Notes: a model not told the origin generated them from the letters alone. A stretch of 64,000 nucleotides of DNA from an uncultured Kiritimatiellota bacterium (GCA_944389565.1 CALXMV010000002.1:49309-113308), one strand, 5' to 3'. Positions 38,003 through 46,656 are shown, counted from the stretch's first letter. A program made the numbers and translations.

Positions 38003-39205
38003 ATGACCGGTAACATGCTCATCGCCCAAAGCGGCGGCCCCTCGGTGGTCATCAACCAAAGCCTCGTCGGCGCCGTTCTCGCCGCCAAGACCTCCACCAA
38101 AATCGTCGAGATCCACGGCGCCCTCCACGGCATCCAAGGCATCCTCGACGAGGCCTTCATCGACCTGCGCGCCGAGCCCGAGGAGGTCCTCCTGCGCGTC
38201 GCCCAGACCCCCTCCTCCGCCCTCGGCTCCGTCCGCCGCAAGCCCTCCGCCGACGACTGCCGCGCCATCTTCCGCGTCCTCGCCAAGCGCGACATCCGCT
38301 ACTTCTTCTACATCGGCGGCAACGACTCCGCCGAGACCGCCAACATCATCGCCGAGGAGGCCGGCCGCCAAGGCTACGACCTGCGCTGCTTCCACATCCC
38401 CAAGACCATCGACAACGACCTCCTCTGCAACGACCACACCCCCGGCTACGGCTCCGCCGCGCGCTTCGTCGCCTGCGCCGTCCGCGGCGACGACCTGGAC
38501 AACCGCGCCCTCGGCGGCGTCAAGATCGACGTCATCATGGGCCGCAACGCCGGTTTCCTCGCCGCCGCCGCCGCGCTGGCCCGCCAAGACCCCGACGACG
38601 GCCCCCACCTCATCTACCTCCCCGAGCGCCCCTTCACCCTCGACCGCTTCGTCGCCGACGTCGCCGAATGCATCACCCGCCACGGTCGCTGCGTCGTCGC
38701 CGTCTCCGAAGGCATACGCGACCCCGACGGCCGCCCCATCGCCGAGGCCTTCTCCTCCGAGATCGACCCCCACGGCAACGTCCAGCTCACCTCCGGCGCG
38801 CTCGGCGAAAACCTCGCCGCCGTCATCCGCGCCAAGCTCCCCGCCGTCAGGCGCGTCCGCGCCGACACCTTCGGCTTCATCCAGCGCTGCTTCGTCGGGT
38901 GCGTCTCCGAGACAGACGCCAACGAGGCCCGCCTCGTCGGCTCCGTCGCCGTCCAGGCCGCCGTCGGCGGCAAGTACCAGAACGGCACCGTCACCATCAA
39001 CCGCCTCCCCGGCGCCGCCTACCAGGTCGACTACGCCATCGCGCCCCTCCCCGCCGTCGCCCGCCACACCCGATCCCTCCCCGACCGCTTCATCAACCCC
39101 GAGGGCAACAACGTCACCGGCCTCTTCCTCGACTACGCCCGCCCGCTCGTCGGCGCGCTCCCCGTCACCGCCCGTTTCAACGCCCTCCGCAACCGCCGCG
39201 CCTGA
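38003..39205 (+). CDS. 6-phosphofructokinase (PfkA family, possibly PPi-dependent)
   Basis: Motifs GGxSxVIN, GGNDS and PKTIDND. Confidence 0.75.
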   Translation: MTGNMLIAQSGGPSVVINQSLVGAVLAAKTSTKIVEIHGALHGIQGILDEAFIDLRAEPEEVLLRVAQTPSSALGSVRRKPSADDCRAIFRVLAKRDIRYFFYIGGNDSAETANIIAEEAGRQGYDLRCFHIPKTIDNDLLCNDHTPGYGSAARFVACAVRGDDLDNRALGGVKIDVIMGRNAGFLAAAAALARQDPDDGPHLIYLPERPFTLDRFVADVAECITRHGRCVVAVSEGIRDPDGRPIAEAFSSEIDPHGNVQLTSGALGENLAAVIRAKLPAVRRVRADTFGFIQRCFVGCVSETDANEARLVGSVAVQAAVGGKYQNGTVTINRLPGAAYQVDYAIAPLPAVARHTRSLPDRFINPEGNNVTGLFLDYARPLVGALPVTARFNALRNRRA

Positions 39206-39218
39206 CGCACGCCCGGCC

Positions 39219-40337
39219 ATGAGACCCTTCTCCCTCCTGATCAAGCCCGCCGGCGCGGATTGTAACCTGCGTTGCGAATACTGCTTCTACCTGGGGCGGG
39301 CGGCGCTCTACCCCGGGCGAGCCGTCCACCGCATGGACACCCCGACGCTCACGCGCCTGGTGCGCGGCTTCCTCGCCCTGCCCTTCCCCGCCCACACCTT
39401 CGCCTTCCAGGGCGGCGAGCCGCTCCTCATGGGCGAGGCCTTCTACCGCGACCTCCTCGCCCTCCAGCGCCGCTACGCCCGCCCCGGCGCCCAGATTACC
39501 AACTGCGTCCAGACCAACGGCACCCTCCTCACCCCCTCCCTGGCCCGGCTCTTCGCCGACAACCGCTTCCTCCTCGGGGTGAGCGTGGACGGCCCCGCCG
39601 CCGTGCACGACCTCCGCCGGCCCGACCCCGCCGGCCGCGGCAGCCATGCCGCCGTCCTGCGCGGCCTCGCCCTCCTCCGCGACGCCCACGTGGAGCACAA
39701 CCTCCTCACCCTCGTCTCCCAGAGCAACGTCCACGACCCTCTCGGCACCTACCGCTACCTCCGCGACACGCTCGGTTGCCGCTTCATGCAGTTCATCGAA
39801 TGCGTGGAGTTCGGCCCCGACGGCGCCCCCCTTCCTTACGCCATCTCCCCCGACGAGTGGGCCGACTTCGTCATCGCCGTCTTCGACGAATGGTACGCTC
39901 ACGACCTCCGCTCCGTCTCCGTCCGCCTCTTCGACAGCGTCGTCGCCAAGATCCTCACGGGCAACGCCAACAGCTGCTCGATGGGCGCCGACTGCCGCGA
40001 CTACCTCGTCGTCGAGCACAATGGCGACGTCTACCCCTGCGACTTCTTCGTCCGCCCCGAACTCCGCCTCGGCAACATCCTGGAGAACGACTGGGACGAG
40101 ATCTGGGATCACCCCCTCCACGCCGCCTTCGGCGCCCGCAAGGCGCAGACCCACCCCGATTGCGCCGGCTGCCCATGCCATGCCTTCTGCCAGGGCGACT
40201 GCCCCAAAAACCGCACCGGCCACGACCCCGCCGCCGACCCGCGTACCCTCTCCTACCTCTGCCCGGCCTGGAAACGGATCTACGCCCACATCCTCCCCCC
40301 TCTCCGCCGCGAGGCCGAGAAACTCCGCCGCCGCTGA
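39219..40337 (+). CDS. Anaerobic sulfatase-maturating enzyme (radical SAM/SPASM)
   Basis: CNLRCEYC (CxxxCxxC) motif plus C-terminal Cys clusters. Confidence 0.85.
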   Translation: MRPFSLLIKPAGADCNLRCEYCFYLGRAALYPGRAVHRMDTPTLTRLVRGFLALPFPAHTFAFQGGEPLLMGEAFYRDLLALQRRYARPGAQITNCVQTNGTLLTPSLARLFADNRFLLGVSVDGPAAVHDLRRPDPAGRGSHAAVLRGLALLRDAHVEHNLLTLVSQSNVHDPLGTYRYLRDTLGCRFMQFIECVEFGPDGAPLPYAISPDEWADFVIAVFDEWYAHDLRSVSVRLFDSVVAKILTGNANSCSMGADCRDYLVVEHNGDVYPCDFFVRPELRLGNILENDWDEIWDHPLHAAFGARKAQTHPDCAGCPCHAFCQGDCPKNRTGHDPAADPRTLSYLCPAWKRIYAHILPPLRREAEKLRRR

Positions 40338-40753
40338 CCCCCCCGCCGCCGACCCGCGCGTCCCTGCCCCCCGACCCTGCGCATGGTTCACCCCCGACCC
40401 TGCGCAGGGTCGGCGTTGGTTCGTGCGCGACACGCCCCTAAAAAAGGTCTTAAGCGGTCACGGGACCGCCAACACCCCTTTTTCGAGGGAAAACCGAAAA
40501 TCACGAAAAGTGATTGCAATCCGAATGGTTATTTGATATTTTCCGAAGCGTTGTCCCCATCGGGGCGTCTGTGAAAGGAACGATTCATGACTGACACCGT
40601 TTGCGATGCGTCGCGCTTCGCGGCGATACACGACAAAGACTTCGCCATGGCCCACACGCTGCCGGGCTACCGTCTCGCAGTCCCCCGCGCACACCTGTCT
40701 TGACTGCCTCCGTTTTGCCAACCTATGTGTGTTTTTTTGCGAAAGGATCGACT

Positions 40754-42310
40754 ATGACCCCCACACCGCCCGTCGCCGTCGAGAAGAAGGCCGTCGCCAC
40801 CCTTCCCGAAAACGTCCGCTCCTTCATCGTTCCCTCCTACCAGCGTGGTTATCGTTGGGGCGAAGTCCAGGTGCGCCAACTGGTCGAAGACCTCAGGGAG
40901 GCCGCCGAGAACGGGAAGCCCTATTGCCTCCAACCGCTGGTCGTGCATGGGGACAAGAACACAAAAGAATGGCGTGTCATCGACGGTCAGCAACGCCTGA
41001 CGACCCTGTGGCTTCTGCTCGACGCCCTGGGGAAACGCCCCTCGTGGCAGTTATGTTACGAACGGCACGGCGGCGTGACGAAGCCCCTGGACATCCCGGA
41101 AGGGACACCGGACGCTTTTTTCGTCACCCATGCCCGGCAAGCGCTGAGCGAGAGCCCGGGGTTGGAAGCCTATCTCGACGACCCGAACGGCCCCTTTTTC
41201 CTGTGGTACGAGCCGGAAGGCAAGGAAAGCGACATCTTCGCGCGCCTGAACGCCGGCAAAATCCATCTCTCCAACGCGGAGCTCATCAAGGCCGCCCTGC
41301 TTGACAGGCAGGCGGACGTCAACGCGCGACAGTGGGACGCCGTCGAGCAACGCCTGCAAGACGAGGACTTTTGGTGTTTCGTCAATCCCGAGCCGGACGC
41401 CGCCCGCTTCAGCGCCGCCCGTATCGATTTCCTCTTTGAGCTGTGGATGCGGCGAGGGGGGAACGGGAAAAGCGACGATTTCGCGAAGAACCCGGAGCAG
41501 GCCTTCCGACGCAATCCCTTTGTCGTCTACGAGGCGGTCGTGGGCACGAAAGAGGCCCCAAACGACACAAAGGCGGTCTGGCAGGAGGTCTGCGAGATCT
41601 CTGACAAGATGAACGAGTGGTATGACGACCCATGGCTCTACCATCTCATCGGTTTCCTGATGGCCAACCGCGTCAAGAAGCCGGAAGAGCGATTCAGGAC
41701 CCTGCTGGAACTGCTCGCCAAAGTCACGCCCAAAAAGGCGGGTCAGGCGGAAGAGCCGTTGACGAAACACGGTTTCGTGCAGGAGGTCAGGGAGCGCTGC
41801 CGACAGGCAATCTTCGGGGACAGGGAGATCGAGGCTTGCCTGGGGGGATGGGTGTATGGGAAGAACAACAAGGAAATCATCGCCGCGCTTCTCCTCTTCA
41901 ATCTCGCGCTGACGCATCACGCGGGATTGGAACGGACGCGTTTCCCGTTCGGCACCTTTCGGGGAACAGGTTGGAGCATCGAGCACATCCACCCGCACGC
42001 GCGAGGCGGAAGCGATGCGTTCGGCAATTTGACGCTCCTGCCAAAAGGGGACAATGCGGCGTTCAGCGACGGGATCTTCCACGAGAAACGGAGTTGTTTT
42101 CGGAAATGGTTGGGGGTTGACGGCACGGATGGCCCGTCTGACGGGCCAAAAGGATTCATCCCATTGGGCACGCGCCTTGTCTTCGCCCGTTTTGTCGGCC
42201 GTGAGGCGCCCGAGGAGACTTCAGGGGATTGGGACGCCGAAAAGGACGGCGGGCCGTATCAGGCTTTCGTCGCCAAGACCATCGAGACCTATCTGCCGAA
42301 CGGAAAATAA
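40754..42310 (+). CDS. GmrSD-like type IV restriction/DNA-modification-sensing protein (DUF262 ParB-like N-domain plus DUF1524 His-Me finger C-domain)
   Basis: AAAGGA RBS before the ATG at 40754. DGQQRLTT motif. C-terminal EHIHPHARGG…GNLTLLPKGDN. The island has lower GC. Confidence 0.75.
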   Translation: MTPTPPVAVEKKAVATLPENVRSFIVPSYQRGYRWGEVQVRQLVEDLREAAENGKPYCLQPLVVHGDKNTKEWRVIDGQQRLTTLWLLLDALGKRPSWQLCYERHGGVTKPLDIPEGTPDAFFVTHARQALSESPGLEAYLDDPNGPFFLWYEPEGKESDIFARLNAGKIHLSNAELIKAALLDRQADVNARQWDAVEQRLQDEDFWCFVNPEPDAARFSAARIDFLFELWMRRGGNGKSDDFAKNPEQAFRRNPFVVYEAVVGTKEAPNDTKAVWQEVCEISDKMNEWYDDPWLYHLIGFLMANRVKKPEERFRTLLELLAKVTPKKAGQAEEPLTKHGFVQEVRERCRQAIFGDREIEACLGGWVYGKNNKEIIAALLLFNLALTHHAGLERTRFPFGTFRGTGWSIEHIHPHARGGSDAFGNLTLLPKGDNAAFSDGIFHEKRSCFRKWLGVDGTDGPSDGPKGFIPLGTRLVFARFVGREAPEETSGDWDAEKDGGPYQAFVAKTIETYLPNGK

Positions 42311-42320
42311 GGAGACCGCC

Positions 42321-43385
42321 ATGCACGAACCAACCTTTCTGCGCGAACTAACCTTTCTGGATGCCTTGCGGAAACGGCCCATCGTCATCCCCGCGATTCA
42401 GCGCGACTACGCGCAAGGGCGCGACACAACCCAAGCGGCGAACATCCGCACGGCGTTCGTGCGGCGGCTGGATGAGGCCGCCCGTGACCCGGGACGGGCG
42501 CTGAGCCTCGACTTGGTGTACATGGCCAAGGACGACAAGGCCGACTGGGTGCCTGTGGATGGGCAGCAGCGCCTCACCACGCTCTTTCTCTTCCATCTCT
42601 ATCATCTGAAAGACGTCTCCGACCTCAAACGCTTCAGTTATGCGGTGCGCCGCTCTTCACAGGCTTTCTGCGAGAAGGTCGTGGAGCGACAGCCGGACTG
42701 GAAGGGATTGGTGGAGGGAGGGCAGTATCCCACCCCCTCGGCGGCCATCCGCGACCAAGTCTGGTTTCTGAGCGCGTGGGAACGCGATCCCACCGTCAAG
42801 GGGATGCTCCAGACGCTGGACACCATCCACGGGGAAGCCAAGCAGAAAGCCCCGCTTCCGGAAGGATGGGAACGGAACATCACCTTTTGGGGCTACGAAC
42901 CCGAGGGGGACGCCGACGTGATCTACCGCGAGCTCAACGCCCGCGGCAAGCCGCTCACGCCCTTCGAGAACCTCAAAGCCTTCATCGATGGCCGCCCCGG
43001 CGTGACGAAGGACTGGAGAACGAATATCGACGGCGCATGGCTGGACGCGATCTGGGGGGCCGTCGAGAAAACGGAAGACCCGGAGTCCGCGTGCGACACG
43101 GCGCTGCTGACGCTGACGGTGGCGACACTTCTTGTCCGGGCCGTCGCGAAAGGCTCGGTCTCCGAGGAAACGGACGTCCAGGAAGCATTGGCCGTCCTGA
43201 TGGATCCCAACGCCTGGCTCTCGGACAATCTGCGAGAACGCCTGTGCGACGATGCCGCGCCTGAGGCGTTGGACAGGGATTTCGGGAAGGTGGCGCAGGA
43301 CGGCGGCAAGGAAGCCGCCGACCGGATGACCGCGCCCTGGGAGACAGGGGCAAGTTCCCGCTCATCGACAAACTTGCGCGGATAG
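42321..43385 (+). CDS. Second DUF262 (ParB-like NTPase/nuclease) protein; its reading frame probably continues by a -1 shift into 43265..44440
   Basis: AAGGAG RBS. DGQQRLTTLF motif. GC3 collapses after ~43345 while the -1 frame becomes codon-like. Confidence 0.6.
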   Translation: MHEPTFLRELTFLDALRKRPIVIPAIQRDYAQGRDTTQAANIRTAFVRRLDEAARDPGRALSLDLVYMAKDDKADWVPVDGQQRLTTLFLFHLYHLKDVSDLKRFSYAVRRSSQAFCEKVVERQPDWKGLVEGGQYPTPSAAIRDQVWFLSAWERDPTVKGMLQTLDTIHGEAKQKAPLPEGWERNITFWGYEPEGDADVIYRELNARGKPLTPFENLKAFIDGRPGVTKDWRTNIDGAWLDAIWGAVEKTEDPESACDTALLTLTVATLLVRAVAKGSVSEETDVQEALAVLMDPNAWLSDNLRERLCDDAAPEALDRDFGKVAQDGGKEAADRMTAPWETGASSRSSTNLRG

Positions 43386-43411
43386 CCAACGACCATCTCA
43401 CGTATGCCGAC

Positions 43412-44440
43412 TTGACCCTGCTGTATGCCTATTTGGAGGAACCGACCCATTGCCCGGAATGGTGGCGCGTCATCCACAACATCGTCGAGAACACGACGAT
43501 CGACAGCGCGAAAACGTTCGTCAGCGCGATCAAGTCCTTCACGGAACTGACCAAAGGCGCCAACCAGGGGCATGCCACCTTCCAAACGGCGCTGGGAGCG
43601 TCCGGCTTCGCGAAAGACCAGCGCATGGAAGAACGCAAAAAACTGGAACTCATCGCCGCAAACCCGTCTTGGCGTGGCCGTATCGTAGAGGCAGAGAGAT
43701 TGCCATGGCAAAAAGGCCGGATCGGGTTCCTGCTGGACCAGGGCGACAGCGATCCGGAAACCTTCGCAACGATCAAAGGATCCTTCATGTCGACATTCGC
43801 GGACGAAACGTCACGCCGCGCTTGGCTCCGCGACACCGTCCTCCCGCGGATCGAGGCCGCCTACTATACACCCGACACCGACAAAGCGGTTTACATCCCC
43901 TGTACGCTCGTCTATCCCGAGAATGACCACATCCTCAAAGATTTCCTCTACAGCCATTCATGGCAGATCGAATCCTTGGCACAGGCCGGCCAGGCAACCA
44001 CGGCGCGTTCCGCGTGGCGCGACCGTCTGGATTGTCTCTGCGAGGGGTGGGACGATCCGCGCGGGCAACCCTATGCCGATCGGTACGTCATCCAAACCAG
44101 ATCCGTGAACAGCCCCGGCGTTTATTTGTATACACGCCGCTATCTCAACGACAACACGGCTTACCGCATTGACAAGGCGGTCGATTGGTGGTATGCCCTC
44201 TCGGGCGTGACCCCCTGCAACAACAGGTGGTGCTTGATCAGAGGCGGAACCGCCGTGGAGGTCACGTGGCAGGGCGAAACGCTCCGTCTCATCCACGTTG
44301 ATCCGGGGTGGCAGGGCGTATGCAGCAAAGACACGGAAAAACAAACGTGGGGCGAGGACGTCGCATTCAACCCACAGACGCAGACGCTCGGGGACGTCGT
44401 GAAAACATTGCGCGAGGAGGCCTCGCATGGAAACGGATGA
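43412..44440 (+). CDS. Unknown protein. The frame is open from 43265, so this is possibly the C-terminal half of the preceding DUF262 gene, with an ENDHI(x)n putative degenerate nuclease motif.
   Basis: The ORF-track start is TTG. The same frame reads …GKFPLIDKLARIANDHLTYADL… upstream with high GC3. Confidence 0.5.
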   Translation: MTLLYAYLEEPTHCPEWWRVIHNIVENTTIDSAKTFVSAIKSFTELTKGANQGHATFQTALGASGFAKDQRMEERKKLELIAANPSWRGRIVEAERLPWQKGRIGFLLDQGDSDPETFATIKGSFMSTFADETSRRAWLRDTVLPRIEAAYYTPDTDKAVYIPCTLVYPENDHILKDFLYSHSWQIESLAQAGQATTARSAWRDRLDCLCEGWDDPRGQPYADRYVIQTRSVNSPGVYLYTRRYLNDNTAYRIDKAVDWWYALSGVTPCNNRWCLIRGGTAVEVTWQGETLRLIHVDPGWQGVCSKDTEKQTWGEDVAFNPQTQTLGDVVKTLREEASHGNG

Positions 44441-45263
44441 CGAGTTGGAGTGGTACCTTGAGCCACCGGAGTGGCAACTTTCCGGAGCCAAAGAGGCGCC
44501 CCCGCCCGCCGACTGGCCGGGCGACATCTTCCCGCGGTGGGAGGCCTTCCGACGCGCCCACCAGTCCGCCGACGCCGTGTTCGATCCTGCGATCGACGAG
44601 TCTTGGCGCTTGTCGGATATCTACGCCCTCCGTCGCAGCCGGGACGGCGAGGGTGATTGGCGCCTTACCTGTAAGGGCGTTCCTCCCGAAGCCTACATGG
44701 GCAATAAGGCGCTGCGCCTCGTGGTCGCGCCCGACCCGGCCTTAGAAATCCAGGGTTGCGGTTGCGGAAGTAACGCCATCGGCGCGCGGGCCTTCAAGGG
44801 CTGCGTGAACCTGAACTACGTCACCCACCTCGCGAACGACGTCTACGACATCGAGGAAGAAGCCTTCGCCGGGTGCTCGGCCCTGCGCGAGATCTGGAAC
44901 TTTCCCTTTTATCTGACGCGCATCGGGAAGCGTGCCTTCCAAGGGTGCGAGCGGCTCTGGAGGATTTGCCTGCCGGATTGCTTGGATGAAATCGGAGAAG
45001 AGGCCTTTTCCGGGTGCTCGGCCCTGTTGAAAGTCACTTTCGCGGAATGCATGCCTGATTGCCTTCGGTTTATCGGCCCACGCGCCTTCGCGGGGTGTGC
45101 GAGCCTACGGAAGGTCTATCTCCCGCAAACGCTCGAAACACTCGGGACAGACGCTTTCGCGGGCTGCCGCGCCCTCCGGCACGTCATCCTGCCCCGCACG
45201 TTGGAGGCGTCCATACCCGACGCCTTCCCGGACAGCACCGAAGCCGACTTCGTCTTTCACTGA
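44427..45263 (+). CDS. Leucine-rich-repeat protein (BspA-type LRR_5 repeats)
   Basis: GAGGAGG RBS. Repeats IG(x)AF(x)GC(x)L(x)V(x)LP occur about five times. It overlaps the upstream gene by 14 nt. Confidence 0.7.
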   Translation: METDDELEWYLEPPEWQLSGAKEAPPPADWPGDIFPRWEAFRRAHQSADAVFDPAIDESWRLSDIYALRRSRDGEGDWRLTCKGVPPEAYMGNKALRLVVAPDPALEIQGCGCGSNAIGARAFKGCVNLNYVTHLANDVYDIEEEAFAGCSALREIWNFPFYLTRIGKRAFQGCERLWRICLPDCLDEIGEEAFSGCSALLKVTFAECMPDCLRFIGPRAFAGCASLRKVYLPQTLETLGTDAFAGCRALRHVILPRTLEASIPDAFPDSTEADFVFH

Positions 45264-45369: not shown

Positions 45370-46656
45370 TCAGAGGGTTTCGAGGATGAGACGGCGGGGC
45401 GGGGGCGGTTCGTCGGAAAGGGCAAAGGCCGCGCGGGCGGCATCCAGCTGCGCATGCGCCGTCGCGCCGTCCGCCGCGCACAGCACGCAGAGCGGGGCAC
45501 CGGCCTCCACGCGCTCGCCCTGGCCAAGGAGCGCGTCGACGCCCGCCGCGGGGTCGGGCGTGTCGGTCACCGCGCGACGCCCCGCGCCGAGCCCCAAGGC
45601 CACGCGGCCGATCGCCTCGGCGTCCACGTGCGCCACCCATCCCGCGCGCGGGGCGGGCACCTCCACGCGCGCCCCCGCCTGGGGCAACGGCGCGTCCGGG
45701 TCGCCCCCCTGCGCCGCCACCATCTCACGGAAGACCGCGTACGCGGCGCCGGAATCCAACGTCTCGCGCGCCCGCTCACGGGCGGCGCCGAGATCGGCGC
45801 AGAGCCCCGCCGCGTGCGCCATCCACGCCGCCTCCTCGATTGTCAGCGCCCGCACGTCCCACGGGCCCTTCCCGTTCAGCACGTCGACGGACTCGGCGAC
45901 CTCCAGGGCGTTCCCGACGGTCCGCCCGAGCGGCTGATTCATGTCCGTCACCAAGGCGCGGCACGTGCGGCCCAGGCGCCGGCCGGTCTCCAGCAGGCTC
46001 TCGGCCAAGGCACGCGCGTCGGCGAACGTGCGCATGAAGGCGCCGCTCCCGCACTTCACGTCGAAGAGCAGCGTGTGGGCGCCCTCGGCGAGTTTCTTGC
46101 TCATGATGGAGGCGGTGATGAGGGGGATGCTCGGCACCGTGCCCGTCACGTCGCGCAGGGCGTAGAGCCGTCGGTCGGCCGGCGCCAGGGAATCCGTCTG
46201 CCCGATCAGGCAACAGCCCACCGAGCCCACGATGCGGCGGAAATCCGCCACGCCGAGGCGCGTGTCGAAGCCGGGGAGGCTCTCCAGTTTGTCCAGCGTG
46301 CCGCCGGTGAGCCCCAAGCCGCGCCCCGAGATCATCGGCACGGCCAGCCCCATCGCCGCGCAGAGCGGCGCCAAGGGCAGGGAGATTTTGTCGCCCACCC
46401 CGCCGGTCGAATGCTTGTCCGCGGTCGGCCGGGGCAGATCCCAGGCCAGACACTCGCCCGAACGCATCATCGCGTCCGTCAGCGTCGCGGTCTCGCGCGG
46501 CGTCATGCCCCGCAGGCAGACGGCCATCAGCCACGCGGCGATCTGGTAATCCGGCAGGGAGCCGTCCGTCACCCCGCGCACCCAGGCGCGGAGGTCGGCC
46601 TCGGCGTGCTCCTTGCCGTCGCGCTTCGCCTCGATGAACCACTGCGGCACCAACAT
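45370..46656 (-). CDS. deoA: Thymidine/pyrimidine-nucleoside phosphorylase
   Basis: Motif HSTGGVGDK and glycosyl-transferase family 3 features. Confidence 0.8.
   Translation of the reverse strand: MLVPQWFIEAKRDGKEHAEADLRAWVRGVTDGSLPDYQIAAWLMAVCLRGMTPRETATLTDAMMRSGECLAWDLPRPTADKHSTGGVGDKISLPLAPLCAAMGLAVPMISGRGLGLTGGTLDKLESLPGFDTRLGVADFRRIVGSVGCCLIGQTDSLAPADRRLYALRDVTGTVPSIPLITASIMSKKLAEGAHTLLFDVKCGSGAFMRTFADARALAESLLETGRRLGRTCRALVTDMNQPLGRTVGNALEVAESVDVLNGKGPWDVRALTIEEAAWMAHAAGLCADLGAARERARETLDSGAAYAVFREMVAAQGGDPDAPLPQAGARVEVPAPRAGWVAHVDAEAIGRVALGLGAGRRAVTDTPDPAAGVDALLGQGERVEAGAPLCVLCAADGATAHAQLDAARAAFALSDEPPPPRRLILETL

What the first reader, a model, noticed from the sequence alone, without database searches (positions are those of the whole stretch)
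40440..45263. Lower-GC island with tandem DUF262 (GmrSD-like) genes, an unknown C-terminal module and an LRR protein
A 4.9-kb insert lies between the anSME gene and deoA. It starts with a ~400-bp AT-rich promoter region. The first gene is an intact DUF262+DUF1524 gene with a DGQQR motif and the His-Me finger EHIHP…N. It is followed by a second DUF262 gene (DGQQRLTTLF) that lacks the DUF1524 signature and instead continues into a 340-aa unknown module. Last comes a translationally coupled BspA-type leucine-rich-repeat protein. Tandem type-IV-restriction-like sensors plus an LRR partner are not a standard described defence arrangement.
Basis: partly seen in the sequence, partly recalled or inferred. 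Interest (0 to 1): 0.65.

Follow-up and report, generated by a model that had tools for sequence, protein, structure and literature searches.

The report
Paired GmrSD-like restriction genes, one broken
A foreign 4.9-kb island in a gut Kiritimatiellae genome carries a widespread but unnamed two-gene relative of GmrSD-type restriction enzymes; its second gene is split by a real frameshift, and the leucine-rich-repeat gene behind it is at most an occasional companion.

Summary
The island is real. GC3 is 0.74-0.80, against 0.92-0.95 in the flanking genes. It lies between the anSME gene and deoA and is absent from the nearest relative.

Gene A (40754-42310) is an intact DUF262 + His-Me (DUF1524) protein.

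The "second DUF262 gene plus 340-aa module" is one ~706-aa gene broken by a 1-nt frameshift at the GGGG run 43347-43350. Full-length homologues of 684-780 aa span both halves. The same break is present in six independent assemblies.

A followed by B is a conserved operon. All 5 close contexts have it, as do 69 of 75 distant loci from many phyla, often next to restriction-modification and mobile-element genes.

It has the same design as the characterised two-protein type IV systems TgvAB and ECOR17 GmrS1/GmrSD2. It is a different lineage: the gene order is reversed, only the DUF262 core is similar, and B has its own C-terminal module with no match among solved structures.

The LRR gene overlaps the end of B and shares the island's composition. 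Its closest homologues lie elsewhere, and nearly all other A-B pairs lack an LRR neighbour. Two exceptions keep a weak link open: a downstream LRR gene in L001 and an LRR-A fusion in L068.

Verdict: a new variant of a known kind, probably decaying here. Interest is moderate.

The parts
40338..40753 (+). Upstream spacer of the island (416 nt, GC 0.59). It holds a promoter-like element: TTGACT at 40700-40705, a 17-nt spacer, CTATGT at 40723-40728, and the Shine-Dalgarno GAAAGGA at 40741-40747. A palindrome AATCAC-GAAAA-GTGATT lies at 40499-40515.
   Evidence: The TTGAC(T/C) - ~17 nt - TAACAT-like - GAAAGGA block aligns upstream of the A gene in L007, L004, L008, L009 and L001. The sigma-70 scan called no site on this strand, and there is no Rfam match. 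The 38-aa ORF at 40587-40703 called in other assemblies is not conserved in relatives.
40754..42310 (+). Gene A: an intact GmrSD-like protein (518 aa). It has an N-terminal DUF262 ParB-like NTPase domain, a helical linker and a C-terminal His-Me finger (DUF1524) nuclease.
   Evidence: Pfam GmrSD_N 3e-27, GmrSD_C 1e-3, HNH_4 5e-3. Invariant in 20 homologues: YQRGYRW, DGQQRL, N166, H411, N425, N434, K445. PADLOC matches (HEC-06, Orf5, SspE) cover only the first ~90 residues. An A-like gene lies directly upstream of a B-like gene in 5 of 5 close contexts and 69 of 75 distant loci.
42321..43385 (+). Gene B, 5' part (354 aa as sequenced). It covers the DUF262 domain, with the subfamily motifs IQRDYAQGR, VDGQQRLTT and NARGKPLTPFEN, and the start of the helical region. 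It ends at a TAG created by the frameshift.
   Evidence: Pfam GmrSD_N 5e-17. Start ATG 42321 lies 10 nt after the stop of A and follows AAGGAGA. It aligns to residues 1-345 of full-length homologues.
43347..43350 (+). Frameshift site. This is a GGGG run where one base is missing relative to the intact homologues. The reading frame changes from 0 to -1 between ...MTAPWETG and KFPLIDKLAR...
   Evidence: Three-frame translation. The repaired junction aligns with P0001 (...MTAPWDKPFPLIDKLAR...). The same split into 354 + 342 aa is called in four assemblies; two more end inside B, and all six are 99.97-100% identical to the window as far as they extend. There is no slippery heptamer and no long homopolymer (direct reading).
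43349..44440 (+). It has a conserved helical core with invariant N387, E390, N391 (HNIxEN), Q434, E437, E438, K441, E459 and G466, followed by a lineage-specific, beta-rich end.
   Evidence: It aligns to residues ~350-705 of full-length homologues. Pfam, PADLOC and NCBIfam give no family. The AF2 model has pLDDT 78, and the best Foldseek PDB match has E 0.7. The core is found at positions ~370-560 of 650-870-aa proteins among 315 representative clusters. The only start codon in this frame is TTG 43412; it has no Shine-Dalgarno and falls inside a conserved helix.
44427..45263 (+). Gene D: a small (278 aa) BspA-type LRR_5 protein with no obvious signal peptide. It overlaps the end of B by 14 nt and has its own GAGGAGG Shine-Dalgarno.
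   Evidence: Pfam LRR_5 4e-30, LRR_8 8e-9. Sequence of the junction. GC3 0.78, like the rest of the island. Full-length homologues P0122 (57%), P0125 (46%) and P0123 (41%) lie in loci without DUF262 genes.

Best explanation
The island is a horizontally acquired defence cassette. [quoted passage not shown]

Gene A supplies a DUF262 NTPase/sensor domain and the His-Me finger nuclease. Gene B supplies a second, divergent DUF262 domain and a family-specific helical and beta-rich C-terminal module with no nuclease motif.

By analogy with TgvAB and ECOR17 GmrS1/GmrSD2, A and B most likely work together as a hetero-oligomer. Both NTPase domains would gate the single nuclease of A against modified foreign DNA, with B acting as the specificity or regulatory subunit. 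This step is inferred, not shown.

In this Kiritimatiellae lineage, B has suffered a 1-nt deletion that truncates it after 354 residues. The cassette here is therefore probably inactive or impaired and at an early stage of decay.

The LRR_5 gene arrived in the same variable stretch. It is expressed from its own ribosome-binding site and is most likely a passenger rather than an obligatory component.
For: 1. Foreign origin.
- GC3 is 0.74-0.80 against 0.92-0.95 in the flanks.
- The nearest relative (PFK 90% identical) has PFK directly followed by deoA, with no A, B or D.
- Two other relatives have different genes after PFK, so this site is variable.

2. B and C are one gene.
- Twenty-odd homologues of 684-798 aa cover 87-98% of the repaired protein; P0001 is 55% identical over 98%.
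- The alignment is continuous across the junction.
- The AF2 model of the repaired protein has pLDDT 80.6, and the junction falls in a loop between confident helices.

3. The frameshift is real.
- Six assemblies from different samples are 99.97-100% identical, and all those that reach the site have the same split.

4. The pair is conserved.
- An A-like gene abuts the B-like gene upstream in L001-L009.
- The same holds in 69 of 75 informative distant loci from Bacteroidota, Bacillota, Pseudomonadota, Actinomycetota, Campylobacterota, Spirochaetota, Verrucomicrobiota and others. The median gap is -4 nt.
- In four distant pairs checked with Pfam, the upstream partner has GmrSD_N plus GmrSD_C and the downstream one has GmrSD_N only.

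5. Defence context.
- Among the neighbours of the distant pairs, 8 of 84 match ResIII, 5 HsdR, 4 N6_Mtase, 3 HsdM_N, 3 phage integrase and 3 WYL.
- HsdR sits directly downstream in L058.
- Copies occur on 17 plasmids.

6. Catalytic residues.
- A keeps H411, N425 and N434, and both proteins keep QR, DGQQR and the NxxG/FE motifs.
- The best structural match to the B model is SspE (Foldseek E 5e-6).

7. Precedent for the mechanism.
- TgvA (DUF262 only) and TgvB (DUF262 + DUF1524) are both required. DGQQR mutants of either, or H571A/N602A in TgvB, abolish defence against glucosyl-hmC phages (PMC11411939; PMC11014532).
- ECOR17 GmrS1 + GmrSD2 behave likewise (PMC12373910).
Against: - No experiment exists on any member of this A-B lineage that I could find. 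Restriction activity, dependence on DNA modification and complex formation are all inferred from distant relatives.
- Similarity to TgvA and TgvB is confined to the generic DUF262 core. BLASTP gives 8e-15 over 94 residues for A and about 0.01 for B. The gene order is the opposite.
- B's C-terminal module has no recognisable fold or family, so its role is unknown.
- The frameshifted copy shows no further decay, and the samples show no divergence. A functional split gene, or a truncated but active B, cannot be excluded.
- The island has no integrase, tRNA or flanking repeats, so how it got there is unknown.
Confidence: 0.65

Rival explanations
1. Three-component system. The LRR_5 protein D is a functional accessory of the A-B module in some lineages, for example a protein-binding sensor or adaptor. 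It would be comparable to the repeat-domain sensors of other immune systems.
For: - D overlaps the end of B by 14 nt on the same strand.
- D shares the island's GC3 and is absent together with A-B from the nearest relative.
- It is the only LRR_5 gene in the 64-kb window, and no other turned up in the background sequence of the related loci scanned.
- In L001-L003 a 527-aa LRR_5 gene (Pfam 6e-123) directly follows another A-B pair.
- In L068 an A-like protein carries an N-terminal LRR_5 segment (6e-12) fused to GmrSD_N and GmrSD_C.
- L020 has two LRR_5 genes within 2.5 kb of a pair.
Against: - L004-L009 have no LRR after the pair.
- Only 2 of the 80 distant loci hold any LRR_5 sequence (the L068 fusion and the opposite-strand genes in L020), and no recurrent third gene exists.
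- D's closest full-length homologues (57%, 46% and 41% identical) lie in loci without DUF262 genes.
- The L001 LRR protein belongs to a different subfamily: it is 527 aa and about 35% identical in the repeats only.
- Leaving out the window itself, one adjacency and one fusion compare with roughly 0.4 expected by chance. This is my rough estimate from 2 LRR ORFs among the neighbourhood ORFs, and it is suggestive only.
Confidence: 0.2
2. Functional split gene. The frameshift created, or is tolerated as, a three-polypeptide version of the system. In this version the B N-terminal half (the DUF262 domain) and ORF C (the module) are made separately, or B is made whole by ribosomal frameshifting, and the cassette is still active.
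For: - Both halves are free of further stops or indels.
- The break falls in a loop between helices of the model.
- The allele is the only one seen in six samples.
- GmrS and GmrD domains can work as separate chains in some family members (Machnicka 2015).
Against: - ORF C has no ATG or GTG. Its only start is TTG 43412, which has no Shine-Dalgarno and would remove about 20 residues of a conserved helix (Y362 and A370 are nearly invariant).
- The shift needed is -1, but there is no X XXY YYZ heptamer, and GGGG is too short for transcriptional slippage (direct reading).
- All close homologues are single ORFs.
- The six assemblies are virtually identical, so their agreement shows one clone and not selection.
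- Broken copies of either partner occur elsewhere (L086, L028, plasmid pSYMBR3459).
Confidence: 0.15
3. Not an immune system. The two ParB-like DUF262 proteins serve another DNA transaction, such as partition or maintenance of a mobile element, and the nuclease motif of A is incidental.
For: - DUF262 belongs to the ParB-like superfamily.
- Copies occur on plasmids.
- No member of this lineage has been tested.
Against: - The His-Me catalytic triad of A is invariant across phyla.
- The neighbours are dominated by restriction-modification genes, not partition genes.
- Every characterised DUF262-DUF1524 protein (GmrSD, BrxU, SspE, TgvB) is a restriction-type nuclease.
Confidence: 0.05

Closest known systems
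TgvAB of Vibrio cholerae VPI-2 (two-protein GmrSD-like type IV restriction system)
   Same: Two adjacent, co-oriented, abutting genes both encode DUF262 domains with intact QR/DGQQR motifs. Only one of the two carries the DUF1524 His-Me nuclease. The pair is often embedded in or next to type I R-M loci. It is widespread across phyla.
   Different: - The gene order is reversed: here the nuclease-bearing gene comes first.
- Sequence similarity is limited to the DUF262 core (A 8e-15 over 94 aa; B about 0.01).
- B has its own signature (QRDYAQGR, HNIxEN...QxxEExxK) and a ~460-aa C-terminal region.
- A true TgvAB-like pair coexists with an A-B pair in L033, so the two are separate lineages.
GmrS1/GmrSD2 doublet of E. 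coli ECOR17 (PMC12373910)
   Same: It is a type IV restriction enzyme that needs two GmrS-like genes, of which only one has the HNH/His-Me domain. Neither gene is active alone.
   Different: - The DUF262-only gene is described as upstream.
- The ECOR17 system is inhibited by T4 Ip3. Nothing comparable is known here.
Single-chain GmrSD enzymes (Eco94GmrSD, BrxU = PADLOC HEC-05, HEC-06, enterococcal TIV-RE) and SspE
   Same: Gene A has the same DUF262 - helical linker - DUF1524 architecture and the same catalytic motifs. SspE is the best structural match to the B model and a weak sequence match to A.
   Different: - Those enzymes work alone, whereas A is almost always paired with B.
- PADLOC HEC-05, HEC-06 and SspE models match only about 20-90 N-terminal residues of A.
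BspA-type LRR_5 proteins
   Same: D has four to five LRR_5 repeats above the Pfam threshold.
   Different: D is small (278 aa). It has an acidic N-terminus with no hydrophobic signal sequence and none of the surface-anchoring domains typical of BspA-like adhesins, so it is presumably cytoplasmic.

Membership tests
GmrSD family (COG1479) type IV restriction enzymes | N-terminal DUF262 (ParB-like NTPase) domain with QR, DGQQR and FxxxN-type motifs | tested here: met
   A matches Pfam GmrSD_N at 3e-27 and B at 5e-17. The motifs are invariant in the alignments A3 and A1.
GmrSD family (COG1479) type IV restriction enzymes | C-terminal DUF1524 His-Me finger with H...N...H/N | tested here: met
   Met for A only. 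EHIHP H411, GNL N425 and N434 are invariant in 20 homologues. Pfam GmrSD_C is 1e-3 here, below the cut-off, but 1e-5 to 1e-8 in three distant A-like partners. B has no such motif and no beta-beta-alpha element in the model.
GmrSD family (COG1479) type IV restriction enzymes | Cleavage of modified DNA only (for example glucosyl-hmC or phosphorothioate) | not testable with these tools
   This needs phage or plasmid challenge, or biochemistry.
TgvAB-type two-protein GmrSD-like systems | Two adjacent DUF262 genes in one operon, only one of them with DUF1524 | tested here: met
   The A stop and the B start are 10 nt apart.
TgvAB-type two-protein GmrSD-like systems | Homology to TgvA and TgvB beyond the shared DUF262 core, with the order DUF262-only gene then nuclease gene | tested here: not met
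   BLASTP and phmmer against the first 400 residues of TgvA and TgvB (V. cholerae and Psychrobacter; Table S5 of PMC11411939) give only N-terminal ~90-aa matches. The real TgvAB pair in L033 scores 1e-33 to 1e-37. The order here is nuclease gene first.
TgvAB-type two-protein GmrSD-like systems | Both proteins are required for defence | not testable with these tools
   This is inferred only from the near-universal co-occurrence.
PADLOC HEC-06 / HEC-05 (BrxU) / SspE | Full-length match to the system's HMM | tested here: not met
   Matches cover A residues ~10-96 of models 558-793 positions long. B matches are weaker, and C and D give none.
BspA-type LRR (Pfam LRR_5) proteins | LRR_5 repeats above the gathering score | tested here: met
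   104.7 bits against a cut-off of 27.7.
BspA-type LRR (Pfam LRR_5) proteins | Secretion signal or cell-surface domains | tested here: inconclusive
   By inspection the N-terminus (METDDELEWYLEPPEWQ...) is acidic, has no hydrophobic stretch, and no other Pfam domain was found. No signal-peptide predictor was available.

The most novel reading that the evidence does not exclude
The A-B pair represents an uncharacterised, phylum-spanning class of two-subunit type IV-like restriction enzymes. B's unique C-terminal module, with a conserved polar cluster and no match among solved structures, determines what is sensed. In some lineages an LRR_5 module has been recruited as an extra sensor or adaptor, either as a separate downstream gene (this window, L001) or fused to the nuclease subunit (L068). 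That would be a bacterial nuclease-based immune system using leucine-rich repeats for recognition.
Probability: 0.15. Interest if true: 0.7.

Novelty: new variant of a known kind. Interest (0 to 1): 0.45.

Why it matters
Type IV restriction by GmrSD-family enzymes is a major front in the arms race with phages that modify their DNA. Why some of these systems need a second, nuclease-less DUF262 protein is still open for TgvAB.

The pair found here belongs to a separate lineage with the same two-subunit logic. It is very widespread, spanning many phyla and plasmids, and it seems to be missing from PADLOC 2.0.0 and from the literature I could search. Naming and testing it would fill a gap in defence-system annotation. 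It would also give a second, independent model for how two ParB-like NTPase domains control one His-Me nuclease.

For this particular window the practical lesson is smaller. The cassette is a recently broken copy, and the LRR link is only a lead.

Tried and rejected
- **Programmed frameshift:** no slippery heptamer, only a 4-nt G run, and no Rfam element. Rejected as unsupported.
- **Sequencing error:** rejected, because six independent assemblies agree.
- **Mobile-element hallmarks:** no tRNA in the window and no flanking direct or inverted repeats beyond chance. No integrase gene lies in the island or its flanking genes.
- **38-aa ORF upstream of A (40587-40703):** not conserved in relatives.
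- **Membership of TgvAB, HEC-05, HEC-06 or SspE:** tested and not met.
- **Metagenome scan for an empty site:** I replaced it with look-ups of PFK orthologues.
- **GTDB genome scan:** it returned only distant relatives, up to 41% identity over the N-terminus. The host species is not among those hits.
- **Source names:** exact look-ups gave no source names for the island's proteins.


Full report
**Observation**

The stretch between the radical-SAM/SPASM (anSME-type) gene (39219-40337) and the convergent deoA-type phosphorylase gene (45370-46656, minus strand) differs sharply in composition from its surroundings. GC in 500-nt windows falls to 0.58-0.64, against 0.68-0.76 in the flanks. Third-codon-position GC is 0.77, 0.80, 0.74 and 0.78 for the four ORFs, against 0.92-0.95 for five flanking genes.

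The ORF map and the Pfam scan give four ORFs:
- A (40754-42310): GmrSD_N 3e-27, with weak GmrSD_C and HNH_4 matches.
- B (42321-43385): GmrSD_N 5e-17.
- ORF C (43412-44440): no family.
- D (44427-45263): LRR_5 4e-30.

Nothing else marks the island. The window has no tRNA, there are no meaningful flanking repeats, and there is no Rfam match.

**The second gene is frameshifted**

B and ORF C are in different frames. The C frame is open from 43265 but has no start codon before TTG 43412. Inserting one G into the GGGG run at 43347-43350 gives a 706-aa protein.

The best is 55% identical over 98%. The alignment runs smoothly through the junction: window ...MTAPWETG|GKFPLIDKLAR... against P0001 ...MTAPWDKPFPLIDKLAR.... 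An AlphaFold model of the repaired protein has mean pLDDT 80.6, and the junction lies in a loop between confident helices.

An exact look-up of protein A found the same island in six assemblies from different samples. They are 99.97-100% identical over up to 5.1 kb. The four that extend far enough show the same 354 + 342-aa split. The frameshift is therefore a real allele and not an assembly error. The near-identity of the copies means they say nothing about selection.

I found no slippery heptamer and no long homopolymer. TTG 43412 has no Shine-Dalgarno sequence and would start inside a conserved helix. I therefore read B as a recently inactivated or truncated gene. A working split gene remains possible at low probability.

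**What the pair is**

In every close context, an A-like gene of 519-544 aa sits immediately upstream of an intact B-like gene of 684-753 aa (L001-L009).

A scan of one genome per GTDB species with B's two signature peptides (QRDYAQGR, DGQQRLTTL) gave 80 loci. They come from Bacteroidota, Bacillota, Pseudomonadota, Actinomycetota, Campylobacterota, Spirochaetota, Verrucomicrobiota and others. In 69 of the 75 loci where the upstream DNA is present, an A-like ORF abuts the B-like ORF on the same strand, with a median gap of -4 nt. Most of the six exceptions are decayed or truncated copies.

In four distant pairs checked with Pfam, the upstream partner has GmrSD_N plus GmrSD_C and the downstream one has GmrSD_N only. 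No third gene recurs.

Among 84 neighbouring proteins, 8 match ResIII, 5 HsdR, 4 N6_Mtase, 3 HsdM_N, 3 phage integrase and 3 WYL. In L058 an HsdR gene follows the pair directly. Copies also occur on 17 plasmids, where they are annotated only as "DUF262 domain-containing protein".

A conserved TTGAC - 17 nt - TAACAT-like - GAAAGGA block precedes the A gene in the window and its closer relatives.

**Anatomy of the two proteins**

*Gene A.* It keeps every residue that defines a GmrSD enzyme: YQRGYRW, DGQQRL, N166, and the His-Me triad H411, N425 and N434. All are invariant across 20 homologues.

*Gene B.*
- It keeps the NTPase motifs but in a distinctive form: IQRDYAQGR, DGQQRLTT, NARGKxLTxFEN.
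- It then continues into a helical region with an invariant polar set: N387, E390 and N391 in HNIxEN; Q434, E437, E438 and K441; E459; G466.
- It ends in a beta-rich region that is lineage-specific.
- Searched on its own against 1.84 billion representatives, the C-terminal part matches 315 clusters. The match is nearly always residues ~376-484 of the repaired protein, aligned to positions ~370-560 of 650-870-aa proteins. This core is therefore the family signature of the B partner.
- It has no Pfam, NCBIfam or PADLOC family.
- Its model (pLDDT 78) has no significant PDB neighbour (best E 0.7).
- The full B model's best hits are SspE chains (E 5e-6).

**Comparison with what is known**

Two groups described TgvAB of V. 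cholerae in 2024. TgvA has DUF262 only and TgvB has DUF262 + DUF1524. Both are required. DGQQR mutants of either, or H571A/N602A in TgvB, abolish protection, and the targets are phages with glucosylated hmC (PMC11411939; PMC11014532). A similar GmrS1/GmrSD2 doublet was shown in E. coli ECOR17 (PMC12373910). Machnicka et al. (2015) had already noted that DUF262 genes are enriched next to GmrSD homologues.

The design seen here, two ParB-like NTPase domains and one nuclease in one operon, is therefore known.

Membership of the TgvAB family was tested and not met. I used the first 400 residues of TgvA and TgvB from Table S5 of PMC11411939. A matches only over ~90 N-terminal residues (best 8e-15), and B scarcely matches at all (about 0.01). 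A genuine TgvAB-like pair that happens to lie in L033, 3.5 kb from an A-B pair, scores 1e-33 to 1e-37. The gene order is also reversed.

PADLOC 2.0.0 models (HEC-06, HEC-05/BrxU, SspE, Orf5, NsnA) touch only the DUF262 N-terminus.

I therefore file the pair as a separate, apparently uncharacterised lineage of two-protein GmrSD-like systems. The mechanism is inferred by analogy and is not shown: a hetero-oligomer in which B acts as the specificity or regulatory subunit and A as the nuclease acting on modified DNA.

**The LRR gene**

*For a link:*
- D's ATG lies 14 nt before the stop of B's 3' part, behind a strong GAGGAGG.
- D has the island's GC3.
- The nearest relative (PFK 90% identical) has PFK followed directly by deoA, with none of A, B or D.
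- D is the only LRR_5 gene in the 64-kb window, and no other appeared in the background sequence of the related loci scanned.
- In L001-L003 a 527-aa LRR_5 protein (6e-123) follows another A-B pair.
- In L068 an A-like protein begins with a genuine LRR_5 segment (6e-12) fused to GmrSD_N and GmrSD_C.

*Against a link:*
- L004-L009 have no LRR gene after the pair.
- Only two of the 80 distant loci hold any LRR_5 sequence: the L068 fusion and opposite-strand genes in L020. LRR_5 is not among the recurrent neighbour families.
- D's closest full-length homologues (57%, 46% and 41% identical) are stand-alone genes in loci without DUF262 genes.

Leaving out the window itself, one adjacency and one fusion compare with roughly 0.4 expected by chance. 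This is my own rough estimate, and it is suggestive but not significant. I treat D as a probable passenger and the LRR link as a lead (probability about 0.2).

**Host and setting**

The PFK next to the island is 79-84% identical to PFKs of Kiritimatiellae MAGs, including Candidatus Spyradenecus. The host is therefore a high-GC gut Kiritimatiellae bacterium. The DNA after PFK differs in each of three relatives, so the island sits at a synteny breakpoint.

**Verdict**

The tandem pair is real and conserved, but it is a variant of a design described since 2024. The "unknown module" is the normal C-terminus of the B partner, and the LRR partner is not general.

- Novelty: new variant of a known kind. 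It is an unnamed, widespread lineage, and the local copy is probably defective.
- Interest: 0.45.

Noticed in passing
L068:2457-4745 (MAG Eubacteriales, JAZQYD010000026.1): The A-like nuclease partner carries an N-terminal BspA-type LRR_5 segment (Pfam 6e-12, residues 33-106) fused to GmrSD_N and a weak GmrSD_C. The gene upstream resembles a WYL-type regulator by my reading of its sequence; its Pfam result was not shown individually. This is a possible Rosetta-stone link between LRR_5 and this system.
   Followed up: partly
L096:4106-7466 and L101:3981-7536 (minus strand), beside the LRR paralogues P0122 and P0123: A four-gene cluster with low GC3 (0.70-0.77, against about 0.93 in its flanks). 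It encodes a ThiF/E1-like protein (PADLOC E1-E2 7e-30), a weak E2-like protein, a JAB-domain protein (6e-13) and an unknown protein. It looks like a ubiquitin-like conjugation defence operon. It sits divergently next to the closest homologues of the window's LRR gene.
   Followed up: partly
L033:5236-9277 and L033:12822-15504: One Bacteroidales MAG contig holds both an A-B pair and a genuine TgvAB-like pair 3.5 kb apart. This shows that the two kinds of DUF262 doublet are distinct and can coexist.
   Followed up: partly
L001:1-12194: The A-B pair here sits in a larger island. The island also holds a second, full-length GmrSD gene (666 aa, at the contig edge), a 902-aa ankyrin-repeat protein upstream and a 527-aa LRR_5 protein downstream.
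   Followed up: partly
window 40499-40515: A perfect 6-bp palindrome with a 5-nt spacer (AATCAC-GAAAA-GTGATT) lies in the most AT-rich part of the spacer upstream of gene A. It could be an operator. I did not check whether it is conserved.
   Followed up: no
window 40371-40413: A 17-nt inverted repeat (94% complementary, 9-nt loop) lies just after the anSME stop codon. It is probably that gene's terminator and marks the left edge of the island.
   Followed up: no
L104 (Paraburkholderia phenoliruptrix plasmid pSYMBR3459, record positions 243555-247532): In this annotated plasmid copy it is the A-like gene that is split, into a 112-aa DUF262 fragment and a 490-aa 'hypothetical protein', ahead of an intact B-like gene. 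It lies next to TcmP/Gp37-Gp68-type genes and IS21. Broken copies of either partner seem common.
   Followed up: no
window 38003-39205 and L105, L107, L109: The DNA after the PFK gene differs in every relative examined: deoA in L105, a GT4 glycosyltransferase in L107 and a PHP-domain gene in L109. The island therefore lies at a recurrent synteny breakpoint. The anSME gene has native GC3 (0.93) but is also missing from the closest relative.
   Followed up: partly
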